Assembly (NCBI GenBank): GCA_027923505.1
Contig: BROI01000035.1
Coordinates: forward strand, 124,001 to 188,000
Direction: 5' to 3'
Source of the DNA: Mayamaea pseudoterrestris
Lineage: Eukaryota
Length of the DNA stretch: 64,000 bases
Of this stretch, positions 49,244 to 57,665 are shown piece after piece; position 1 is the stretch's first letter; every line of letters starts with the position of its first letter. Made by a program: the position numbers and the translations under genes. Below the pieces are notes generated by a model. The model saw nothing but the letters and a program-made list of their open reading frames with translations, made no database searches and was not told the DNA's origin.

Positions 49244-52132
49244 ATGAAGCTGATAATCAGCGTAGCCGCCATTGCGGGCTTGACGACGGCTGTCCATGGC
49301 CGTCCTCGCTTCCTCCAAGACTCTGGTGCCTCGAACAATTTCGTCTGCAAGTACGACACCCCGCCCGATGTGATTCCCTTTACACCGGATGAGAGTCCTG
49401 TACCGACCAGAGCGCCTTTTCCTACTGCGGCTTTCCAGTTACCGCCTGTCGACTGCATTCCAGACATTGAGATTGATGGTGAATTGACAATGGTGGGAGA
49501 TGACTTTGACTATCCTCCCATCAACATTCTCAAGTACGAAGAAGACAAAGTCACGTTTACAGCCTCGCAAACTTGGGCTGACAAGACTCTCTGCCAAGTT
49601 GCTGTCGACTACAGCAGCGCTGATCAAGGCGGCGACATGGTGTGTGATCCTCATGCTGGAGTTGCTGCTGGCGAAATCGGAAGCTACACGGCCATGTGCA
49701 TCGATGGCTTTGCCACCATTACACTATACGCTCAAGACGACTTTTTCAAGCCCAACGGAAATGCCAAAAGCGTTCCTTCTCGCTGTGGGACAGATCTTAC
49801 GCCTGGCTCAAGTACCATTACGCATACCATCAAGATTCCTTGCGTCATGGAACCAGGCTGTCCGGCGAATGAGCCACCTGTTTGTGACGGATCCGAAGAC
49901 ATGATCGTTGCTCCACTGGAAACCTTTGAAAATGACAATGTCGATGGCTGGCTCTACGCCAATCCAGGCAGTGAAGGAGGAAACGGCTTCCTTGGACCCA
50001 CTTCGGAAACGGTAAAGGCATTCTGGGTTCCAACTGAGGCTGATGCACTCACCATTACCTTCACCGTCTTGGAGCTCTCCTGCGACAGCAAAATGGTGGT
50101 TCGATTGGACGACTCGTTGATTGAGCTTGGATCGGCCTTTGATTGCGTCAAGCAAGACGTTTACAAGGGATACGCCGGCGATGTTTACATTGAATCGACG
50201 CCAGTTTCAAACACGGAGAATCAAGTCACTATGCTCGTCCCTCCTGAATGGTTCCAAGACACTGGACGCTTGGTGGTTGGTTTCGTCGCCTCAACTGTCG
50301 GTATTGACGACTTTGATATTACATCGGTGTGCAGCGGCCCCGTCGAATGGCCAGTCGTCGAAACGGAGGCTCCTTCGAGCGCGCCCACTGCTGACTGCGT
50401 TCCCAACGTACTTATTGATGGTGCTCCAGGATTTCCATCTGACTTGGATTATGATCCAATTGAGATTCTTTCGTTTGATAATAAGGAGGTTGTCTTTTCG
50501 GCATCGCAAACATGGGCGGACCAAACCCTTTGTCAGGTGGCTGTCGACTACAGTGCGGCCAGCGCCCAGGGAAACATGGTCTGCGATCCACACAGTGCCG
50601 TTGGCCCTGGAGAATTTGGTACCTATCGCGCCGTTTGCGTCAATGGGTTTGCTACCATTACAGTCTATGCTCAAGATGACTTCTTTAAGCCCATTGGCAA
50701 TGCCAAGAGTGTTCCAAGCCGCTGCGGATCCATCACGCCTGGATCAAGTACGATTACTCATACCATCAAGATCCCATGCTCTCTGGAACCAGGGTGCCCC
50801 GCCAATGAGCCTCCTGTTTGTGACGGCTCGGAAGACATGGTTGTTGTCGAAGAGGAAACTTTTACAGATGGCGTTGACGGATGGTTGTACGCCAATCCCG
50901 GCCTCAAGAATGGCAACGGATTCCTCGGACCTACAGAGGAAACGGCCAAGACTTTTGCTGTCCCTACGGTTGCCGAAGCCGTGGTTGTCACATTCAAGGT
51001 TTTAGAGCTTGACTGCGACGCACATTTTGTCCTTCGTGTTGATGATGCCCTCGTCGAACTTGGATCGGCGTTTGACTGCACCAAGCTTGACTCATACGCT
51101 GGTTATGCTGGTGATATGTGGGTCCAGTCAACAGCTATCACTGCAACGGAGAATGAAATGCAGCTAATAATTCCTGCCGACTGGTTCAAGGACTCTGGGC
51201 GTCTAACCATTGGTTTCGTGTCTTCAACGGTGGGCATTGACGACTTTACCATGGAATCTGATTGCAGTGGGTCCGTGGAGTGGCCAGCGGGTGATTGTGT
51301 ACCCGACATTGAGTTTGTACAAGGCTTGTCAACAGATTTTGAGTACCCGCCCATTGAGATCCTTTCGTACGAAGGAGACAAGGTTGTTTTTTCCGCTTCG
51401 CAGACTTGGACGGAGGACACTCTCTGCCAGGTTGCCGTCGATTACAGCGCCGCTGACAAGAATGGTGCCATGACTTGTGATTCACATGCAGGGGTTGCTC
51501 CAGGCGAAATCGACGTCTACCGCGCCGTTTGCGTCAAAGGATTTGCCCACATTGACGTTTACGCGCACGATGAATTCTTTGCCGAAACGACGCTTAATGT
51601 TCCGTCTCGTTGCTCCGTGGCGAACGGCGCGCACACGCACTCCTACAAGATTGTCATTCCATGCAACCCTGAACCAGGCTGCGCATCAAAGACTGACGAA
51701 GCCATCTGTGCTGGCGCTGGGACGAAGCGCGTTGCGTTTGACGACTTTCAGAACGATGAGGCAAGCTCCTGGATGTTTGGCGACACTGGAAGAGCGGCTG
51801 GCGGTTCCTTCCTCGCTCCCACGACGGCTGAAGTCAGCAAGACTTTTAGTGTACCCAAGACTGCTTCGTCTGTCAGCGTGAGCTTCAAGACGATCAAGTT
51901 TGCGACTAAGAATTCCGTCCATTTGCGCATTGAAAATCACGTGATCGACTTGGGCGATGTCACTGCTGCCAAGGGTTTCTTCGGTGACATTGAAATGACT
52001 ACGACGAACGGACAGGTGAAGCTCAAGGTTCCCAAGGAGTGGTATGCGGATACGGGCCGTTTGACGCTTGGATTCGTTGACTCTAACGCCGGTATTGACG
52101 AGTTTGCGATTGACGCTACGTGCGGAGGGTGA
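49244..52132 (+). CDS. Secreted Cys-rich acidic protein made of three roughly 300-aa tandem repeats
   Basis: Signal peptide MKLIISVAAIAGLTTAVHG followed by RPRFLQ. Repeats start at about 49451, 50393 and 51293 and share PI.IL....V.F.ASQTW...TLCQVAVDYS...C..GFA.I.VYA.D...VPSRC...IPC..EPGC and W..D.GRL..GFV....GID.F. Confidence 0.88.
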   Translation: MKLIISVAAIAGLTTAVHGRPRFLQDSGASNNFVCKYDTPPDVIPFTPDESPVPTRAPFPTAAFQLPPVDCIPDIEIDGELTMVGDDFDYPPINILKYEEDKVTFTASQTWADKTLCQVAVDYSSADQGGDMVCDPHAGVAAGEIGSYTAMCIDGFATITLYAQDDFFKPNGNAKSVPSRCGTDLTPGSSTITHTIKIPCVMEPGCPANEPPVCDGSEDMIVAPLETFENDNVDGWLYANPGSEGGNGFLGPTSETVKAFWVPTEADALTITFTVLELSCDSKMVVRLDDSLIELGSAFDCVKQDVYKGYAGDVYIESTPVSNTENQVTMLVPPEWFQDTGRLVVGFVASTVGIDDFDITSVCSGPVEWPVVETEAPSSAPTADCVPNVLIDGAPGFPSDLDYDPIEILSFDNKEVVFSASQTWADQTLCQVAVDYSAASAQGNMVCDPHSAVGPGEFGTYRAVCVNGFATITVYAQDDFFKPIGNAKSVPSRCGSITPGSSTITHTIKIPCSLEPGCPANEPPVCDGSEDMVVVEEETFTDGVDGWLYANPGLKNGNGFLGPTEETAKTFAVPTVAEAVVVTFKVLELDCDAHFVLRVDDALVELGSAFDCTKLDSYAGYAGDMWVQSTAITATENEMQLIIPADWFKDSGRLTIGFVSSTVGIDDFTMESDCSGSVEWPAGDCVPDIEFVQGLSTDFEYPPIEILSYEGDKVVFSASQTWTEDTLCQVAVDYSAADKNGAMTCDSHAGVAPGEIDVYRAVCVKGFAHIDVYAHDEFFAETTLNVPSRCSVANGAHTHSYKIVIPCNPEPGCASKTDEAICAGAGTKRVAFDDFQNDEASSWMFGDTGRAAGGSFLAPTTAEVSKTFSVPKTASSVSVSFKTIKFATKNSVHLRIENHVIDLGDVTAAKGFFGDIEMTTTNGQVKLKVPKEWYADTGRLTLGFVDSNAGIDEFAIDATCGG

Positions 52133-52480
52133 GTTGAATTAGTTCGGTATAAATGATAAGAGTAGCCAATGTCTCTATCAATGATTATCAACGCTGCAAC
52201 AGTGTACTTAAAGAGTGAACAGGGCTCTTTGTTTGCGGTATATTGCTTTTGACAGCTCACTTATGGCGGATTTGTTGATGCCTCTAGTATAGCTGGCGTC
52301 GCACCGTTTTACGGTCAGACCAGTTCCGCAGACGAGACAGCTGATGACGTTTTGCTCGACCTTGGCGCGCCTTGCAATTCATTATTTCGCTCACATCAAT
52401 TATTGTTCCGCACAATTGCGTTGCTGGTGCTTACATGATCCTGCAACTCTAATGCATCATAAAGGAGGTTTGTGAAAGTA

Positions 52481-55264
52481 ATGCTGACATTCGGTCGACT
52501 GGATTTTCTCCTCGTCCTTCTATTTGCCGTCGAAATTCTGTCATTTTATCCGCAGCCTCATTCTTTTGCCCTTAGACTGCGCTTTCAGTATGGCTACAAA
52601 AGTGAGAAAAGTCCGCGGTTACAACAGACTAAAACAAGTTTGAGTAATCTTTGCTACGAAATTGCTCCTGTTCTGGATAGTATTCCAGAAAAGTTTGACT
52701 CTTTCTTTCGTAGCGTCATCAACGCAACGGCGATTCGAGGTGCCGATACATCCAACCAAGGGCATGATTCATTTCGCTATGAATGGGGCACTTGGGTCGT
52801 TGATTCTTCTCTTGAGTATCTAATGGAGCAGGTCAATAGAGTAAGACTTGTAAAGGGAGCGTATGAAACTCTTGTGGCTGCAGCAACTGACGGCAACGAC
52901 ATAGATGCCTTGCCAAAGCCGGAGCGTTTTCGAATTGCTGGAAGCACATACTGGGACTGCATACTTCATGTACTTCCACCAGATTCAAATTGGCAAGGAA
53001 GATGGCCGACTGGATCTTGGACAATCGTCAAGGTTTTGACAGGAGTCGTGCAAATTGCTTCCCTGTCGGGTCCGGATCGCCATGGCAGTTTCAAGACTAA
53101 AACGTCGCGCGATCTACGGGGTGGGAGCGACGGCTCATTGGGATCGGGACAATCCACGAAAGGAGACGACTGTATCAAATACGTTGGAGGTCCTTTGCGA
53201 AGCTATAGAGGCAAGTATGGCAAGACTGTTTTGCTGGAAGTTGTCGTTCGCGCTCCCACTGGAATGGAAAGCATGTTGGCAGACATTGAACCCTTACTTG
53301 ACCTACAATCCATTATTGAAATTGTTGAGTCGGAAGGGGTGATTGAAGAAGCGCCAGTAGCTGAGCAAAATACCAAAGCTGCTATTAATGCACATTTGGG
53401 AAGTAAGCTTGGCATGGAATTTGAGAAGGTCGGTGGACTCGACAAGCAGCTCGATGCGATTGTGCGACGTGTCTTGGCGTCACGCGCTAATCCAAAGGCT
53501 GCAAAACGACTTGGGGTTGGCCATGTGCGAGGAATTTTACTCAGTGGACCTCCGGGATGTGGCAAGACGCTCCTTGCTAGAGAATTGTCACGGATGCTTG
53601 GGGCGCGTGAACCAATTATTGTCAATGGACCGGAAATTTTGGACAAGTACATTGGCGAGGCGGAAAAGAAGGTGCGAGAGCTCTTTTTGCCAGCTGAGCA
53701 AGAGTACAAGGTACTTGGTGACGATTCTGCCTTACATGTGATCGTTCTGGATGAGATGGACTCGATTGCGAGAAAGCGAGGAACCATGACGGCAGATACA
53801 ACGGGCGTCAGAGATTCGGTTGTCAATCAGTTGCTGGCTAAAATGGATGGAGTCAGAGAAGCAAGCAACATTCTAGTTATCGGTCTGACCAATCGACCAG
53901 ATCTCTTGGATCCTGCCCTGCTTCGTCCTGGACGCTTGGAAGTCCAGTTACGGGTGGAGCTGCCTGATCGAGAAGGTATGTTGAAACTAAAGGCTCGATT
54001 ACCAGGCTTCCTCGGCATGTGCCTCACTTTGCTCATTGTATCATTTCAGGCCGACGCGCTATATTAAGAATACACACACGTCAAATGAAAGAAGCTGGTG
54101 GACTGGGTGCGGACGCTATGAAGTGGATCGAGGATTTGAGCGATATGGGTCTAGCAGCGAAGTCGGAGTACTACTCTGGGGCTGAACTGGCGGGTTTAGT
54201 AAGGAGTGCGGCATCCTTTGCATTGAGTCGAGCAATAGAGGAGGATAACAACGACGCAGGTGCAGTTACTCGAAAAGATTTTCAAGAAAGTCTACAAGAA
54301 GTGCGACCTGCTTTGGGGAAGCAAGATGAGCTGTTAAAATCTAGATATCCACTCGGCATTAGCGCTTGTTCGGCATCAATCCAACGAGTCATGAGGGATC
54401 TTGAGCGATTTACGCGTCCAACTGTGTTCCATGCACCTCGCATACAATCACTCCTTCTGGTAGGGTCTGGAGGGCAAGGCGGTGCCGGGGTTACAGCGCT
54501 CGCCGCTTGGGCAGCTGCAAATGCTTCCAACAACGATTTAACGGACTATGTTCGCTTCGTCACTGCGCTTGATTTAATTACTGCGTCTGAAGGCGGCAAT
54601 GACGCCGCGCGTGCTGCAGCACTCGTATCAAAGTTTGAAGCGGCCAAGGAAATGCCACACTCATTGATTGTATTTGATGATGTGGATCAGCTGTGCGCTG
54701 GTAGTGGACAAGCTGGTTACAGCAGTGTCATGATTGCCACTATACGCGCACTTTTGCGAGTACCTCCAACGACGATGAATGCCAAAGCAGGAGGTAGAGT
54801 TGAATCGAAGGTCATTGGTGGAGCAAGAACAGTTCGTGTCATTGCGACAACATCAAGGTCTGATGCGGCCTGTGTAGTTCTCCATGAGCTTTTCGACGAG
54901 ACAATCGGTGAGTTATTTAGTCCCTTCCCATGTTTTTGATATCTTATTTATATGCTGTACTAACTGACATTATTCAGTCGTCCCACTTTTAGAGCATGCA
55001 TGCGAAGTTGCATCCTTGTTGCGTGATGCGGACGGATTCTCTAGCAAAATCGTCGATTGTGAAGACACGGCAAGGCGGATAATCAATAAACTGGACAAAG
55101 TCGGCATCAAAACCGCTCTTCGGATAGCTGAGCGCGTCGTAGCAGAGACGAGGCAAGAGACGGAAGATGTTGGATCAACGCAATCGAGTGCTCTGGACCT
55201 TATTTTGAATGATTTATCCTCAGATGGTGACTCGGCTCTACAGCTTTGTGAAGTCATCGCGTGA
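52481..55264 (+). CDS. NSF/Sec18-like AAA+ ATPase with an N-terminal signal peptide; exons 52481-53975, 54050-54907, 54978-55264
   Basis: NSF-type D1: [128 protein letters not shown]2 is degenerate. Confidence 0.85.
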
Positions 55265-55508: not shown

Positions 55509-57665
55509 TTACTCGCTGCCAATGCTAGTGTCGTTTCGAGCACCAAGAAAGCTTGGGCGGGTGTAGCCAGACTCGCTATACTTACCAGCCTTAACTTTAA
55601 TACCCGACGAGTACTGCTGCAGAAGGACATCATCAGGAGATCTGTCGCAACCGTAGGGATCCTTTTGGCGTTGCTTCTTCTTGCCCTTTTTGCCTCCCTT
55701 TGGTTGCTTGTGATGCTTCTTATCGTTGCGCTGCTTCTCTGTACCGGCAATGGACATGTCGTTGCCATCCTCGTGCCGATCCATGAAATCTAGCAGCCCA
55801 TCGTCTTCGTCGTTGCGACCACCAGCGGCGAATAAATCCGCTGACTCTGTCGGGCGGACACTCGCCGTCAGCTGATGCTGGCGTTCAAGCTTTTGCCGCA
55901 GCTTCTGAGTATTCGCCAAAGCCGTGGCAATAGTCTCCTTCGCAAACACTTCCTCGTCTTCAACAGTTGGAGGAGGATGGCAATAAAGCAGCTTTCCTGC
56001 CGCGTAATCCTTAATGATCATACGCGCTGCCCGAGTATAGTCTGGTACACCCGACGACGCCGCCAGCATACTTCTTGCCACGCACAGAGTTGCGAGAAAC
56101 TCCTCAGATGTGGGCGGTGGCACTTGCGTTAAACCTCGTTCACGTAATTCCAGCAGCGTTGGCACCGGAAGCGTTATGCCGTATTGGGCATTGATAATGT
56201 CGCGTGGAATGCGCTGGCAAATTAAGTTGACAACGGGCCAGTGATCTCGCATTTGCGCAATGGGATATACGCCAGCGGCAATGAGATCGGCAGTGTTTGA
56301 TACAAAAGAAGGAAATACCAATCCAGGACAATCGCACAACATCATGTCGTCTCGATCCGGTAGCAGCAACGTTTGAAAATGTTTCGTTTTACCTGGTTGA
56401 CTCGCCACACCGACGCGGACGATTCCATGCGTATGCTTGCTTGATCCCACGCAAACGTTGATGACGCTCGATTTACCAACATTAGGAAATCCTACCATTC
56501 CGAATTGGATGCGATCATCATAGCGCGGGTCCGGCTGACAGTCATGCTTTAAAGCAAACGACATCATGGCTTCCAGCAATTGCTCACGTGTTAAAGGCAC
56601 GTCAACGCCAAAGCCGTCCGCCGAAAATGCTTTGTCGGTTTCAAGTTCGGATGTTTCACTTACGACAGTGTCATCTGCTGCTCTAGCTGCAGAAGCTCTT
56701 GGCTCACGTTCTTGCTCATCTTGTGACTCGTCGTCCTCGTCATCCTCATCCGATTCTAATTCATCGAACTCATCAGACTCTTTATCAGTTTCCAAGTCTA
56801 ATCGAGGATCCATTGCAAGCGCCTGTTCCATTCTTTCCTCGTGAGCCGCCGCATCGAGTTTGGCTTGCTCGTGGGTGGCCGAAAAGAATAAGAATTCCCA
56901 ACCACGCTCCGTCAGGTAGTCACTCCACTGCTCACGCTGCCTACGACTCAAGTAGTCACTTTTGTTTATCAAAACAAGCATTGGTTTTCCAAGCGAGTCA
57001 GCATAGTCCTTCAAGTCGTCCGAAAGGTAAAAAAGTGGGTTCCTTGCGTCAACCAGCTGTAACAAGCAAGCGGATCGCTCCAATACGCGCCAGAGCTGCC
57101 TCCATACTTCAATATTCTTCTCAAAGGGTGTAACATTAAGTGAGTCCCAGGACGTTGAATGCCTCATCAATTCCTCCTCCTTCATGGCAATGTTTCTTCG
57201 CCAATCCAAAAAGGCAGCTTGCTCCTGCCGATCCAAGTCTTGTGCCGACATGCTTGCATCCCAAAGGGGTCTTCGCGGAACGCATAGTTCCTGAAAGACA
57301 AAATTCGTCTTTTGATCAGCAAACTGTACACTGGAAGGTCTATAAGCATGCGTATTTGCATCTACAACAACGACTCCTTCTCGCTCCGACATGAACTCTC
57401 GATTTGCCAAATCTGCTTGCAGCAAAAAGTCGTCAACATTTTGTAGCTCCAAAATGCTCTTAGTTTTTGCTTCTGTGACTGTATCAACTAATCCAATGGA
57501 AGCGACTCCATTTCGTTGCTGCATGCCATCCGTCGATGGTTTTGGTGTTCCCTTCGGTCGCAAGGGATTGGCCCGATGAGCCTTTTGCAAAGCGTTCCCG
57601 AGACCGACGCTTCGCTCAAGCTTGCCGGGTTTTCCTTTACGGGATGTTCCCTGATTTCGGGGCAT
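55509..57665 (-). CDS. LSG1: Large-subunit GTPase 1 (circularly permuted GTPase)
   Basis: TPFEKNIEVWRQLWRVLERS, DARNP, NKSD (G4), GFPNVGKSS (G1), PGKTKHFQT (G2), LCDCPGLVFPSF (G3), GKLLYCHPPP. Confidence 0.94.
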   Translation of the reverse strand: MPRNQGTSRKGKPGKLERSVGLGNALQKAHRANPLRPKGTPKPSTDGMQQRNGVASIGLVDTVTEAKTKSILELQNVDDFLLQADLANREFMSEREGVVVVDANTHAYRPSSVQFADQKTNFVFQELCVPRRPLWDASMSAQDLDRQEQAAFLDWRRNIAMKEEELMRHSTSWDSLNVTPFEKNIEVWRQLWRVLERSACLLQLVDARNPLFYLSDDLKDYADSLGKPMLVLINKSDYLSRRQREQWSDYLTERGWEFLFFSATHEQAKLDAAAHEERMEQALAMDPRLDLETDKESDEFDELESDEDDEDDESQDEQEREPRASAARAADDTVVSETSELETDKAFSADGFGVDVPLTREQLLEAMMSFALKHDCQPDPRYDDRIQFGMVGFPNVGKSSVINVCVGSSKHTHGIVRVGVASQPGKTKHFQTLLLPDRDDMMLCDCPGLVFPSFVSNTADLIAAGVYPIAQMRDHWPVVNLICQRIPRDIINAQYGITLPVPTLLELRERGLTQVPPPTSEEFLATLCVARSMLAASSGVPDYTRAARMIIKDYAAGKLLYCHPPPTVEDEEVFAKETIATALANTQKLRQKLERQHQLTASVRPTESADLFAAGGRNDEDDGLLDFMDRHEDGNDMSIAGTEKQRNDKKHHKQPKGGKKGKKKQRQKDPYGCDRSPDDVLLQQYSSGIKVKAGKYSESGYTRPSFLGARNDTSIGSE

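What the first reader, a model, noticed from the sequence alone, without database searches (positions are those of the whole stretch)
52481..55264. NSF/Sec18-like ATPase with a plastid-type presequence, a replaced N-domain and a dead D2 Walker A
Seen: D1 has NSF-specific motifs ([47 protein letters not shown]). The N-terminus is a signal peptide with Phe at the likely +1 position ([17 protein letters not shown]) followed by a basic/Ser-rich stretch. Next come about 220 aa ([41 protein letters not shown]) that I cannot recognise as the NSF N-domain. The D2 Walker A reads [12 protein letters not shown], with no Lys. Established: canonical NSF is cytosolic, binds SNAP/SNARE through its N-domain, and has no signal peptide; diatom plastid proteins use a signal peptide plus +1 Phe. 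Inference: a host fusion ATPase re-targeted into the complex plastid with a new substrate domain, i.e. a possible undescribed organellar unfoldase or remodelling system.
Basis: partly seen in the sequence, partly recalled or inferred. Interest (0 to 1): 0.7.

Follow-up and report, generated by a model that had tools for sequence, protein, structure and literature searches.

The report
Plastid-targeted NSF relative with cupin head
This diatom gene encodes a second, non-canonical copy of the membrane-fusion ATPase NSF that carries a chloroplast import label, has a dead-enzyme cupin domain where NSF binds its SNARE adaptor, and belongs to an apparently undescribed family shared by diatoms, pelagophytes and haptophytes.

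Summary
The gene (52481-55264, +; three exons, 879 aa) is identical to a hypothetical protein of the diatom Mayamaea pseudoterrestris. Spliced transcript contigs match my exon model and run upstream of the ATG.

- **D1 ring:** NSF-type. It scores 239 bits in one stretch against NSF D1, versus about 128 bits per Cdc48/VAT domain. Walker A, Walker B and the pore-loop Tyr are present.
- **D2 ring:** collinear with NSF/Sec18 D2. The Walker A Lys is missing in 0 of 76 family members, against 105 of 105 canonical diatom NSFs.
- **N-domain:** new result. It is not NSF-N. It folds (pLDDT 85) as a thiol-dioxygenase-type cupin (PCO/ADO/CDO, Z 11-13), with no conserved His triad, so it is probably a pseudo-enzyme.
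- **Targeting signal:** a signal peptide followed by [ASGCT]|Phe occurs in 69 of 110 complete N-termini. Shuffled sequences give at most 15.
- **Paralogy:** a separate canonical NSF exists in the same genome (P0238).
- **Phylogeny:** the family groups with NSF against archaeal Cdc48, as sister to 24 canonical NSFs. Host versus symbiont origin is unresolved (AU p 0.135).

My reading is a plastid-imported NSF-derived unfoldase or remodeller with a new recognition domain. Location and substrate are untested. My searches found no description in print.

The parts
52392..52480 (+). 5' leader present in spliced transcript contigs. Holds two tiny upstream ORFs (ATG at 52435 and 52452) and an in-frame TAA at 52460-52462.
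   Evidence: contig of run X3 starts at 52392, that of X4 at 52427. Sequence.
52481..53975 (+). Exon 1 (aa 1-498 plus the first base of codon 499): presequence, cupin N-domain, acidic linker, D1 large subdomain.
52481..52543 (+). Signal-peptide-like segment, aa 1-21 ([21 protein letters not shown]). Phe22 is at the predicted +1 position.
   Evidence: heuristic site ILS|FYPQP. The same layout occurs in 69 of 110 family N-termini.
52544..52678 (+). Transit-peptide-like stretch, aa 22-66. Basic and Ser/Thr/Gln-rich, poorly conserved, low pLDDT.
52679..53311 (+). N-domain, aa 67-277: thiol-dioxygenase-like cupin (helical N-terminal part plus beta-barrel) without a conserved His triad.
   Evidence: Z 11-13 to PCO, ADO, CDO. 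(no His at the metal positions).
53312..53410 (+). Acidic, variable linker, aa 278-310.
   Evidence: pLDDT under 50; up to about 190 aa long in P0021 and P0022.
53411..53975 (+). D1 AAA+ large subdomain, aa 311-498. Walker A GPPGCGKT at 53546-53569, pore loop KYIGE at 53645-53659, Walker B VLDEMD, RPGRLE arginines.
53976..54049 (+). Intron 1 (74 nt, GT..AG).
54050..54907 (+). Exon 2 (aa 499-785): D1 lid, D1-D2 linker, D2 large subdomain.
54463..54498 (+). Degenerate D2 P-loop [12 protein letters not shown] (aa 637-648). Val646 sits where NSF and Sec18 have the Walker A Lys, and the loop is 3 residues longer.
54908..54977 (+). Intron 2 (70 nt, GT..AG).
54978..55264 (+). Exon 3 (aa 785-879 and the stop codon): D2 small subdomain and C-terminal tail ending LCEVIA. 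The Cys at position -4 is conserved in at least 90% of 23 aligned members.

Best explanation
This is a nucleus-encoded, plastid-imported type II AAA+ ATPase that descends from the NSF lineage but no longer works on SNAREs. The N-terminal signal peptide takes it into the ER lumen around the complex plastid. The Phe at +1 and the basic, hydroxylated stretch behind it take it on across the inner plastid membranes. The mature protein would form an NSF-like ring. D1 is the working motor, with intact Walker A and B, arginine fingers and an aromatic pore loop, and it pulls on a protein substrate. D2 has lost nucleotide binding and serves only as a scaffold. The NSF N-domain, which binds SNAP-SNARE complexes, has been replaced by a thiol-dioxygenase-type cupin that has lost its iron-binding histidines. 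This pseudo-enzyme domain is the likely recognition module for a plastid substrate or adaptor, possibly a peptide terminus as in its PCO/ADO relatives. Shown: gene model, expression, domain identities, fold, loss of the Lys and His residues, conservation of the targeting motif, paralogy to a canonical NSF. Inferred: location, ring assembly, unfoldase activity, the role of the cupin.
For: - Gene and mRNA: (spliced contigs X3 and X4 cover the presequence).
- NSF-type D1: one stretch of 239 bits to NSF D1 (229 to Sec18), against 128.7 and 129.2 bits for the two VAT domains.
- D2: exon 2 is collinear with the Sec18/NSF lid, linker and D2 (E 1.5e-13 and 1e-11), ahead of VAT at 3.9e-9.
- Paralogy: 37% identity over aa 312-836 to the canonical NSF of the same organism, and nothing over aa 1-311.
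- Tree: family plus NSF against archaeal Cdc48, SH-aLRT 100.
- D1 motifs among 145 motif-picked members: Walker A in 129; aromatic pore loop in 115 (99 Phe, 16 Tyr); DE Walker B in 108.
- D2 Lys position: 0 Lys in 76 family members, against 105 of 105 canonical diatom NSFs.
- Cupin fold: model pLDDT 84.9, pTM 0.85. Foldseek best hit is PCO5 at E 1.3e-8. VIA-align gives Z 13.2 to 11.4 over 154-181 residues to PCO, ADO and CDO. In the Foldseek-independent search the top 6 of 48,161 chains are all thiol dioxygenases, and generic cupins reach only Z 9.1 or less.
- Targeting: 69 of 110 N-termini have an h-region followed by [ASGCT]|F. The mean of 200 shuffles is 7.7 and the maximum 15.
- Family spread: diatoms, Chrysophaeum (pelagophyte) and Prymnesium (haptophyte).
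Against: - There is no localisation experiment. No SignalP, ASAFind or HECTAR was available, so the targeting count comes from my own heuristic.
- 41 of 110 N-termini fail that heuristic. Many look truncated or are near misses. Haptophyte-like members have Arg, Leu or Pro instead of Phe.
- The window's own h-region contains Asp8 and Glu18.
- In NSF, D2-bound ATP holds the hexamer together (recalled knowledge). A Lys-less D2 may therefore assemble differently or not at all.
- The link to thiol dioxygenases is structural only. Pfam finds nothing at E up to 10 in 18 members. hhalign against 7 bacterial CDO_I sequences gives probability 1%, E 0.05. The residue register for the lost histidines is therefore tentative.
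- The cupin's role as a binding module is inferred from its position in the protein only.
Confidence: 0.6

Rival explanations
1. It is a relict membrane-fusion factor of the periplastidial compartment or periplastid reticulum. The NSF-derived ATPase would recycle a much-changed fusion machinery between the plastid's outer membranes rather than act in the stroma.
For: It is an NSF descendant carrying a bipartite signal. Passages of PMC5756292 argue that a stripped-down periplastid vesicle system may exist and that its proteins would be hard to recognise. PMC3101018 screened Rabs, SNAREs and coat proteins, and NSF does not occur in its main text.
Against: Phe at +1 is conserved. By the rule established in diatoms (recalled from Gould 2006 and Gruber 2007) this sends proteins beyond the periplastidial compartment. 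The SNAP-SNARE binding N-domain is gone. No periplastid SNAREs were found by Moog et al. (passages).
Confidence: 0.1
2. It is an active enzyme-motor fusion. The cupin would still bind a metal or substrate through other residues (for example His95/Asp96, Asp159, His163, Glu253) and would modify a thiol or another group on the substrate that D1 then unfolds.
For: Several acidic and His columns are well conserved: H95 77/105, D96 75/105, D159 90/104, H163 81/104, E253 100/103. Some non-diatom members keep a His two residues after the GG motif (GGALH, GGLHQH; 6 of 104).
Against: H95 and H163 are replaced in pelagophyte- and haptophyte-like members (S, G, R, Y). No column besides these two has His in 60% or more of members. 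The strand that carries HxH in CDO reads RWPTGSW.
Confidence: 0.1
3. It is a secretory-pathway or ER-lumen protein. Only the signal peptide would be functional, and the Phe motif would be incidental.
For: A hydrophobic N-terminus is the only part of the signal that my simple heuristic measures directly.
Against: The [ASGCT]|F site followed by a non-hydrophobic stretch is about 9 times more frequent than in shuffles (69 against 7.7 of 110). An ATP-driven motor in the ER lumen would be unusual. The family is so far named only from algae with red-derived complex plastids.
Confidence: 0.08
4. It is a gene-model artefact. The real protein would start downstream and be cytosolic.
For: None found.
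Against: Spliced contigs extend 54 and 89 nt upstream of the ATG. The next in-frame Met is residue 115, inside the conserved domain that starts near residue 62. An in-frame stop lies 7 codons upstream. Presequences recur in independent assemblies.
Confidence: 0.02

Closest known systems
Canonical NSF / Sec18 (vesicle-fusing ATPase), including the organism's own copy P0238 (MPSEU_000433500)
   Same: Both have tandem D1-D2 AAA+ rings that align collinearly (aa 312-836 against 234-733, 37% identity). D1 has GPPGCGKT, an aromatic pore loop, a DE Walker B and RPGRLE. The D1 lid and the D1-D2 linker match best to NSF and Sec18.
   Different: There is no CDC48_N/CDC48_2-type N-domain; a cupin stands in its place. 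The D2 Walker A Lys is lost and the loop is 3 residues longer. It has an N-terminal bipartite targeting signal. It branches outside the 24 sampled canonical NSFs (SH-aLRT 96).
sCdc48 of the SELMA translocon (symbiont-derived Cdc48 sent into the periplastidial compartment of red complex plastids)
   Same: It is a member of the same double-ring AAA+ superfamily, duplicated and re-targeted to the complex plastid in the same algal groups, and fast-diverging (PMC5070193, passages seen).
   Different: sCdc48 keeps the Cdc48 N-domain and works with Ufd1/Npl4. Recalled knowledge: its signal lacks the aromatic +1 residue and it stays in the periplastidial compartment. The present family derives from the NSF branch, has a new N-domain and carries Phe at +1.
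Thiol dioxygenases of the cupin superfamily (plant cysteine oxidases PCO2/4/5, human ADO, CDO, 3-mercaptopropionate dioxygenase)
   Same: They share the fold, including the N-terminal helical part. VIA-align gives Z 13.2 to 11.4, rmsd 3.4-4.6 A, over 154-181 of 233 residues. They are the top 6 of 48,161 chains in the independent search.
   Different: No sequence-level membership was found. The three histidines that are invariant in 7 bacterial CDO_I sequences have no conserved counterparts. The domain is fused to an AAA+ motor.
Ycf2-FtsHi complex of green plastids (recalled from Kikuchi et al. 2018, not read here)
   Same: A plastid AAA+ assembly that mixes active and degenerate ATPase modules. 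This is a functional analogy only.
   Different: It belongs to the FtsH lineage, is membrane-anchored and is restricted to the green lineage. No sequence relation was tested here.

Membership tests
NSF/Sec18 | Two tandem AAA+ domains, with D1 closest to NSF D1 | tested here: met
   one stretch of 239 bits to NSF, against about 128 bits per VAT domain; clade with NSF against archaeal Cdc48, SH-aLRT 100; collinear with P0238.
NSF/Sec18 | N-domain of the CDC48_N/CDC48_2 type that binds SNAP-SNARE | tested here: not met
   no Pfam match in aa 1-310 at E up to 1, whereas 3 of 8 control canonical NSFs show CDC48_N or CDC48_2; the fold is a cupin; no alignment to the N-domain of P0238.
NSF/Sec18 | D2 Walker A Lys (nucleotide-binding D2 ring) | tested here: not met
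   Lys in 0 of 76 family members (V 31, A 35, S 4, T 4, C 2) against 105 of 105 canonical diatom NSFs. GAGVTALAA aligned to GSGKTALAA.
NSF/Sec18 | Cytosolic, with no signal peptide | tested here: not met
   a hydrophobic presequence is present in the mRNA and conserved.
NSF/Sec18 | Disassembles SNARE complexes with SNAP | not testable with these tools
   This needs biochemistry.
Thiol dioxygenases (PCO_ADO PF07847, CDO_I PF05995) | Cupin barrel with the family's N-terminal helical extension | tested here: met
   (Z 11-13, covering model residues 14-224).
Thiol dioxygenases (PCO_ADO PF07847, CDO_I PF05995) | Three conserved metal-binding His (HxH plus a third His) | tested here: not met
   H75, H77 and H134 are invariant in 7 CDO_I sequences; hhalign places H75 and H77 on R174 and P176, but this is a low-probability alignment; only columns 95 and 163 are 60% His or more, neither is universal, and position 240 reads R 85, Q 11, H 6 of 104.
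Thiol dioxygenases (PCO_ADO PF07847, CDO_I PF05995) | Match to the family's sequence profile | tested here: not met
   no hit at E up to 10 in 18 N-domain sequences; the N-domain profile finds no dioxygenase in the PDB; hhalign probability 1%.
Diatom-type bipartite plastid targeting signal (ASAFAP type) | Signal peptide followed by a small residue|Phe cleavage motif and a non-hydrophobic transit-peptide-like stretch | tested here: met
   69 of 110 complete N-termini, against a shuffle mean of 7.7 and maximum of 15. The window reads ILS|FYPQP. This is my own heuristic, not ASAFind or SignalP.
Diatom-type bipartite plastid targeting signal (ASAFAP type) | Import into the plastid shown in vivo | not testable with these tools
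   This needs GFP fusions.

The most novel reading that the evidence does not exclude
Algae with red-derived four-membrane plastids (diatoms, pelagophytes, haptophytes) have an undescribed plastid-internal AAA+ machine built from an NSF motor and a pseudo-thiol-dioxygenase head. The head would read protein termini in the way PCO and ADO read N-terminal cysteine, and would feed those proteins into the D1 pore. This would be either a new organellar quality-control (N-degron-like) unfoldase or the missing ATP-driven pulling motor of protein import at the inner envelope in lineages that lack the green Ycf2-FtsHi motor.
Probability: 0.2. Interest if true: 0.85.

Novelty: new variant of a known kind. 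Interest (0 to 1): 0.72.

Why it matters
Diatoms and haptophytes carry out a large share of ocean photosynthesis. Much of the protein machinery that builds and maintains their four-membrane plastids is still unknown.

NSF is usually treated as a single-purpose, universally cytosolic SNARE recycler. A conserved second lineage that has lost the SNARE-binding head, gained a dead dioxygenase domain and acquired a plastid import signal shows that the NSF motor was re-used for another job inside an organelle.

The finding gives plastid biologists a concrete candidate for two open questions. It has clear orthologues in transformable model diatoms. The questions are which motors act behind the inner plastid membranes of red-lineage algae, and whether any fusion-type machinery survives in complex plastids. 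It is also a clean example of a pseudo-enzyme recruited as the head of an AAA+ machine.

Tried and rejected
- **Whole genome:** none is held for the window, so the canonical paralogue was found indirectly.
- **ESM Atlas:** no usable hit for the N-domain.
- **Earlier scan findings:** none by sequence. The word search returned one unrelated note on a viral FtsH, which I did not use.
- **RNA runs:** no RNA holder was listed. Two of the four runs nevertheless gave spliced contigs.
- **Sequence-level link of the N-domain to known families:** all attempts failed. Pfam gave nothing. The N-domain profile against the PDB gave only two chance hits, E 0.05 and 1.7. hhalign against CDO_I gave probability 1%. 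PF07847 was not found in the 5 bacterial genomes I searched to get PCO/ADO sequences.
- **NSF-N or Cdc48-N fold for aa 54-286:** not among the 50 best rows of either VIA-align search.
- **First attempt to fetch canonical NSFs:** the list was filled by family members and double-domain Cdc48 proteins.
- **First targeting heuristic:** it picked sites inside the h-region and was replaced (then).
- **Careful IQ-TREE run:** it did not finish in time, so the trees are 'quick' (SH-aLRT only), with a long-branch warning.
- **Recent duplication of the diatom host NSF:** not favoured by the tree but not rejected (AU p 0.135).
- **Literature:** no paper on a plastid NSF-like protein in 9 searches. The supplements of PMC5462543, which list 770 conserved plastid proteins and may include this family, could not be read.
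Full report
**Gene and expression.**
The region holds one gene on the + strand. It has three exons (52481-53975, 54050-54907, 54978-55264) and two GT..AG introns of 74 and 70 nt, giving 879 aa. The product is 100% identical, over 100% of the searched stretch (aa 40-310), to a stored 879-aa protein of the same length. A source names that protein hypothetical protein MPSEU_001072800 of the diatom Mayamaea pseudoterrestris (P0001).

Four public runs hold the stretch. X1 and X2 give unspliced contigs. X3 and X4 each give one contig that skips exactly the two introns. Those contigs begin at 52392 and 52427, which is 89 and 54 nt upstream of the ATG.

Contigs cannot fix a transcript start. They do show that a spliced molecule includes the presequence. 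An in-frame TAA lies 7 codons upstream. The next in-frame Met is residue 115, inside the conserved N-domain.

**The AAA+ part is NSF-type.**
- Pfam sees AAA at aa 352-493 (E 2.1e-35), AAA_lid_3 (E 2.5e-8) and a weak second AAA (E 1.5e-4). It sees nothing in aa 1-310 or in exon 3.
- Against PDB sequences, D1 matches NSF D1 in a single stretch of 239 bits (aa 313-497 against 217-403) and Sec18 at 229 bits. VAT scores higher in total only because two of its domains each give about 129 bits.
- Exon 2 (D1 lid, linker, D2) matches Sec18 (E 1.5e-13) and NSF (E 1e-11) collinearly, ahead of VAT at 3.9e-9.
- D1 keeps GPPGCGKT, the pore loop KYIGE, VLDEMD and RPGRLE.
- I picked 145 family members by a D1 motif. 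Walker A was found in 129, an aromatic pore-loop residue in 115 (99 Phe, 16 Tyr) and a DE Walker B in 108.

**D2 is degenerate across the family.**
The loop [12 protein letters not shown] aligns to GSGKTALAA of Sec18 and NSF. Val stands at the Lys position and the loop has three extra residues. That position is Lys in 0 of 76 family members (V 31, A 35, S 4, T 4, C 2). It is Lys in 105 of 105 canonical diatom NSFs. The DD of the Walker B site is kept.

**The N-domain is a thiol-dioxygenase-like cupin.** This is the main new result.
- The N region (aa 40-310) finds only proteins of the same architecture. There were 23 longer proteins in the 5.8-billion set and 83 representatives out of 1.84 billion. 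In the hits I read, the stretch stands alone only in short records, not shown to be complete proteins.
- An AlphaFold2 model of aa 54-286 with 23 aligned sequences has pLDDT 84.9 and pTM 0.85.
- Foldseek against the PDB puts plant cysteine oxidases first (PCO5 E 1.3e-8), followed by ADO and CDO.
- VIA-align gives Z 13.2 (PCO4, 163 residues), 12.8 (PCO2, 181), 12.7 (ADO, 172) and 11.9 (CDO, 155).
- In the search that does not depend on Foldseek, the six best of 48,161 chains are all thiol dioxygenases (Z 12.1 to 10.7). Generic cupins follow at Z 9.1 or less over about 100 residues. No NSF-N or Cdc48-N chain is among the rows shown, so 'aa 60-300 fold as a normal NSF-N domain' is not supported.
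- At sequence level the link is invisible. Pfam finds nothing at E up to 10 in 18 N-domain sequences. The PDB profile search gives only chance hits.
- To examine the metal site I fetched 7 bacterial CDO_I sequences. Three His and the Ser-His-Tyr triad are invariant in them. hhalign of the two profiles is not significant (probability 1%, E 0.05). Its single alignment does lie on the expected strands and puts the HxH of CDO on R174 and P176 of the motif RWPTGSW.
- In 105 N-domains, position 174 is R/Q/K, 176 is P (82), and 240 (after the invariant GG) is R 85, Q 11, H 6. Only columns 95 (77/105) and 163 (81/104) are mostly His, and both change in pelagophyte- and haptophyte-like members.
- That these histidines bind iron in thiol dioxygenases is recalled knowledge. 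I conclude that the domain is most likely a pseudo-enzyme, and I rate the residue register as tentative.

**Targeting signal.**
The window protein starts [51 protein letters not shown]. Reading the relatives by eye shows classic motifs: SSA|FSTP, GVA|FAPS, ASA|FVAP and AAS|FAPH.

My heuristic asks for a hydrophobic window, then [ASGCT]|F, then a non-hydrophobic stretch. It is met by 69 of 110 N-termini that start with Met and have at least 45 residues before the domain. In 200 shuffles of the same N-termini the mean is 7.7 and the maximum 15.

The 41 misses include near misses (for example RP|F and SQG|F), evidently truncated models, and haptophyte-like sequences with Arg, Leu or Pro after the signal peptide. 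The rule that an aromatic +1 residue sends diatom proteins beyond the periplastidial compartment is recalled from the literature, not tested here.

**Family spread and paralogy.**
Named members come from these diatoms: Mayamaea, Epithemia, Cylindrotheca, Bacillariaceae sp., Thalassiosira, Stephanocyclus, Stephanodiscus and Attheya. Others come from the pelagophyte Chrysophaeum taylorii (P0089) and the haptophyte Prymnesium parvum (P0202).

Canonical NSFs were obtained with a degenerate motif scan of metagenome contigs. Of 118 loci, 96 had NSF-like hits. Eight ORFs that I checked have two AAA stretches. Three of the eight also match CDC48_N or CDC48_2.

One locus (L141) is 100% identical over 70% of its length to a P. 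tricornutum protein. Searching with it returned P0238, the 760-aa MPSEU_000433500 of Mayamaea, along with canonical NSFs of Epithemia, Cylindrotheca and Nitzschia. The organism therefore has a separate canonical NSF.

P0001 and P0238 align over aa 312-836 against 234-733 at 37% identity. Their N-domains do not align at all.

**Phylogeny.**
Quick IQ-TREE trees (LG+C20 PMSF, D1 to the C-terminus) were built from 16 family members, 19 or 24 canonical NSFs and 5 archaeal Cdc48 proteins.
- They put family plus NSF together (SH-aLRT 100).
- They put all canonical NSFs, including the diatom clade with Mayamaea, in one clade without the family (SH-aLRT 96).
- They make the family one clade (SH-aLRT 82-85).
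- Within the family, diatoms split from the rest.

Five near-duplicate rows were dropped before the runs. The careful search did not finish, and a long-branch warning was printed.

A tree that forces the family together with the 7 diatom NSFs is 12.7 log-likelihood units worse but is not rejected (p-AU 0.135). 'D1 groups with NSF' holds. 'Host copy' against 'symbiont copy' remains open. No named red-algal NSF and no other eukaryotic Cdc48-family paralogue was in the tree.

**Mechanism.**
I read the protein as a plastid-imported NSF-derived ring ATPase with three parts:
- D1 is the motor.
- D2 is a nucleotide-free scaffold.
- The pseudo-dioxygenase cupin, joined through a variable acidic linker, selects a non-SNARE substrate or adaptor.

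Location, assembly and substrate are all inferred. The rivals are:
- a periplastidial fusion relic, made less likely by Phe at +1 and the loss of the SNAP-binding head;
- a still-active enzyme head, made less likely by the missing His triad;
- an ER or secretory protein;
- a gene-model artefact, made very unlikely.

**Literature.**
Nine full-text searches found no description of a plastid-targeted NSF-like protein.
- In PMC5070193, a survey of the Cdc48 family, the passages I read treat sCdc48 of SELMA and describe NSF as universal. They mention no second NSF lineage.
- PMC3101018 reports no periplastidial vesicle-trafficking factors, and 'NSF' does not occur in its main text (passages).
- PMC5756292 argues that any periplastid vesicle machinery would be strongly modified (passages).
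- PMC5462543 has none of my terms in its main text, and its supplementary tables could not be read. The family may be listed there without comment.

**Verdict.**
The domain architecture (bipartite signal, dead thiol-dioxygenase cupin, NSF D1, Lys-less D2) is a new variant of the NSF/Cdc48 kind. It is conserved across major chlorophyll-c algae, and I could not find it described.

Noticed in passing
window 49244-52132 (+): Intron-free 962-aa ORF directly upstream. It has a signal-peptide-like start (MKLIISVAAIAGLTTAVHG) and three internal repeats of about 300 aa, each rich in conserved Cys. The only Pfam hit is a weak Big_5 match (E 3.4e-5). It is probably a secreted or cell-surface repeat protein.
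   Followed up: partly
window 55509-57665 (-): Convergent 718-aa ORF with an MMR_HSR1 GTPase domain (E 4.7e-12) and a long acidic insert. Its stop lies 245 nt from the stop of the NSF-like gene.
   Followed up: partly
window 52435-52475 (+): Two tiny upstream ORFs (ATG at 52435, 5 codons; ATG at 52452, 7 codons) lie in the 5' leader that the spliced contigs cover.
   Followed up: no
window 52877 and 9 single-base sites between 52499 and 55358: All four public runs lack 3 bases at 52877, which removes one residue in the Ala run at aa 132-134. They also differ from the window at a few single bases. This is allelic or strain variation relative to the assembly.
   Followed up: no
P0021, P0022 (relatives): Some Bacillariaceae members carry an extremely acidic insert of about 190 aa between the cupin and D1. 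The window protein has 33 residues there.
   Followed up: no
P0080 (815 aa): One representative has the presequence and only the first part of the N-domain (up to about RLRPGAYDSL), followed by a low-complexity stretch and leucine-rich repeats. It is either a chimeric gene model or a real domain shuffle.
   Followed up: no
L121:388-2316 (-): In a myxobacterial genome (G003) a CDO_I-type cupin lies in one uninterrupted 643-aa frame with an ABC-type ATPase domain. If it is a single gene, this is a bacterial example of a thiol-dioxygenase-like cupin fused to an ATPase.
   Followed up: no
family C-termini (alignment A1): The last residues are conserved as L-C-[EN]-V-x, with the Cys in at least 90% of 23 sequences. 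This is not the HbYX motif of Cdc48 and its meaning is unknown.
   Followed up: no
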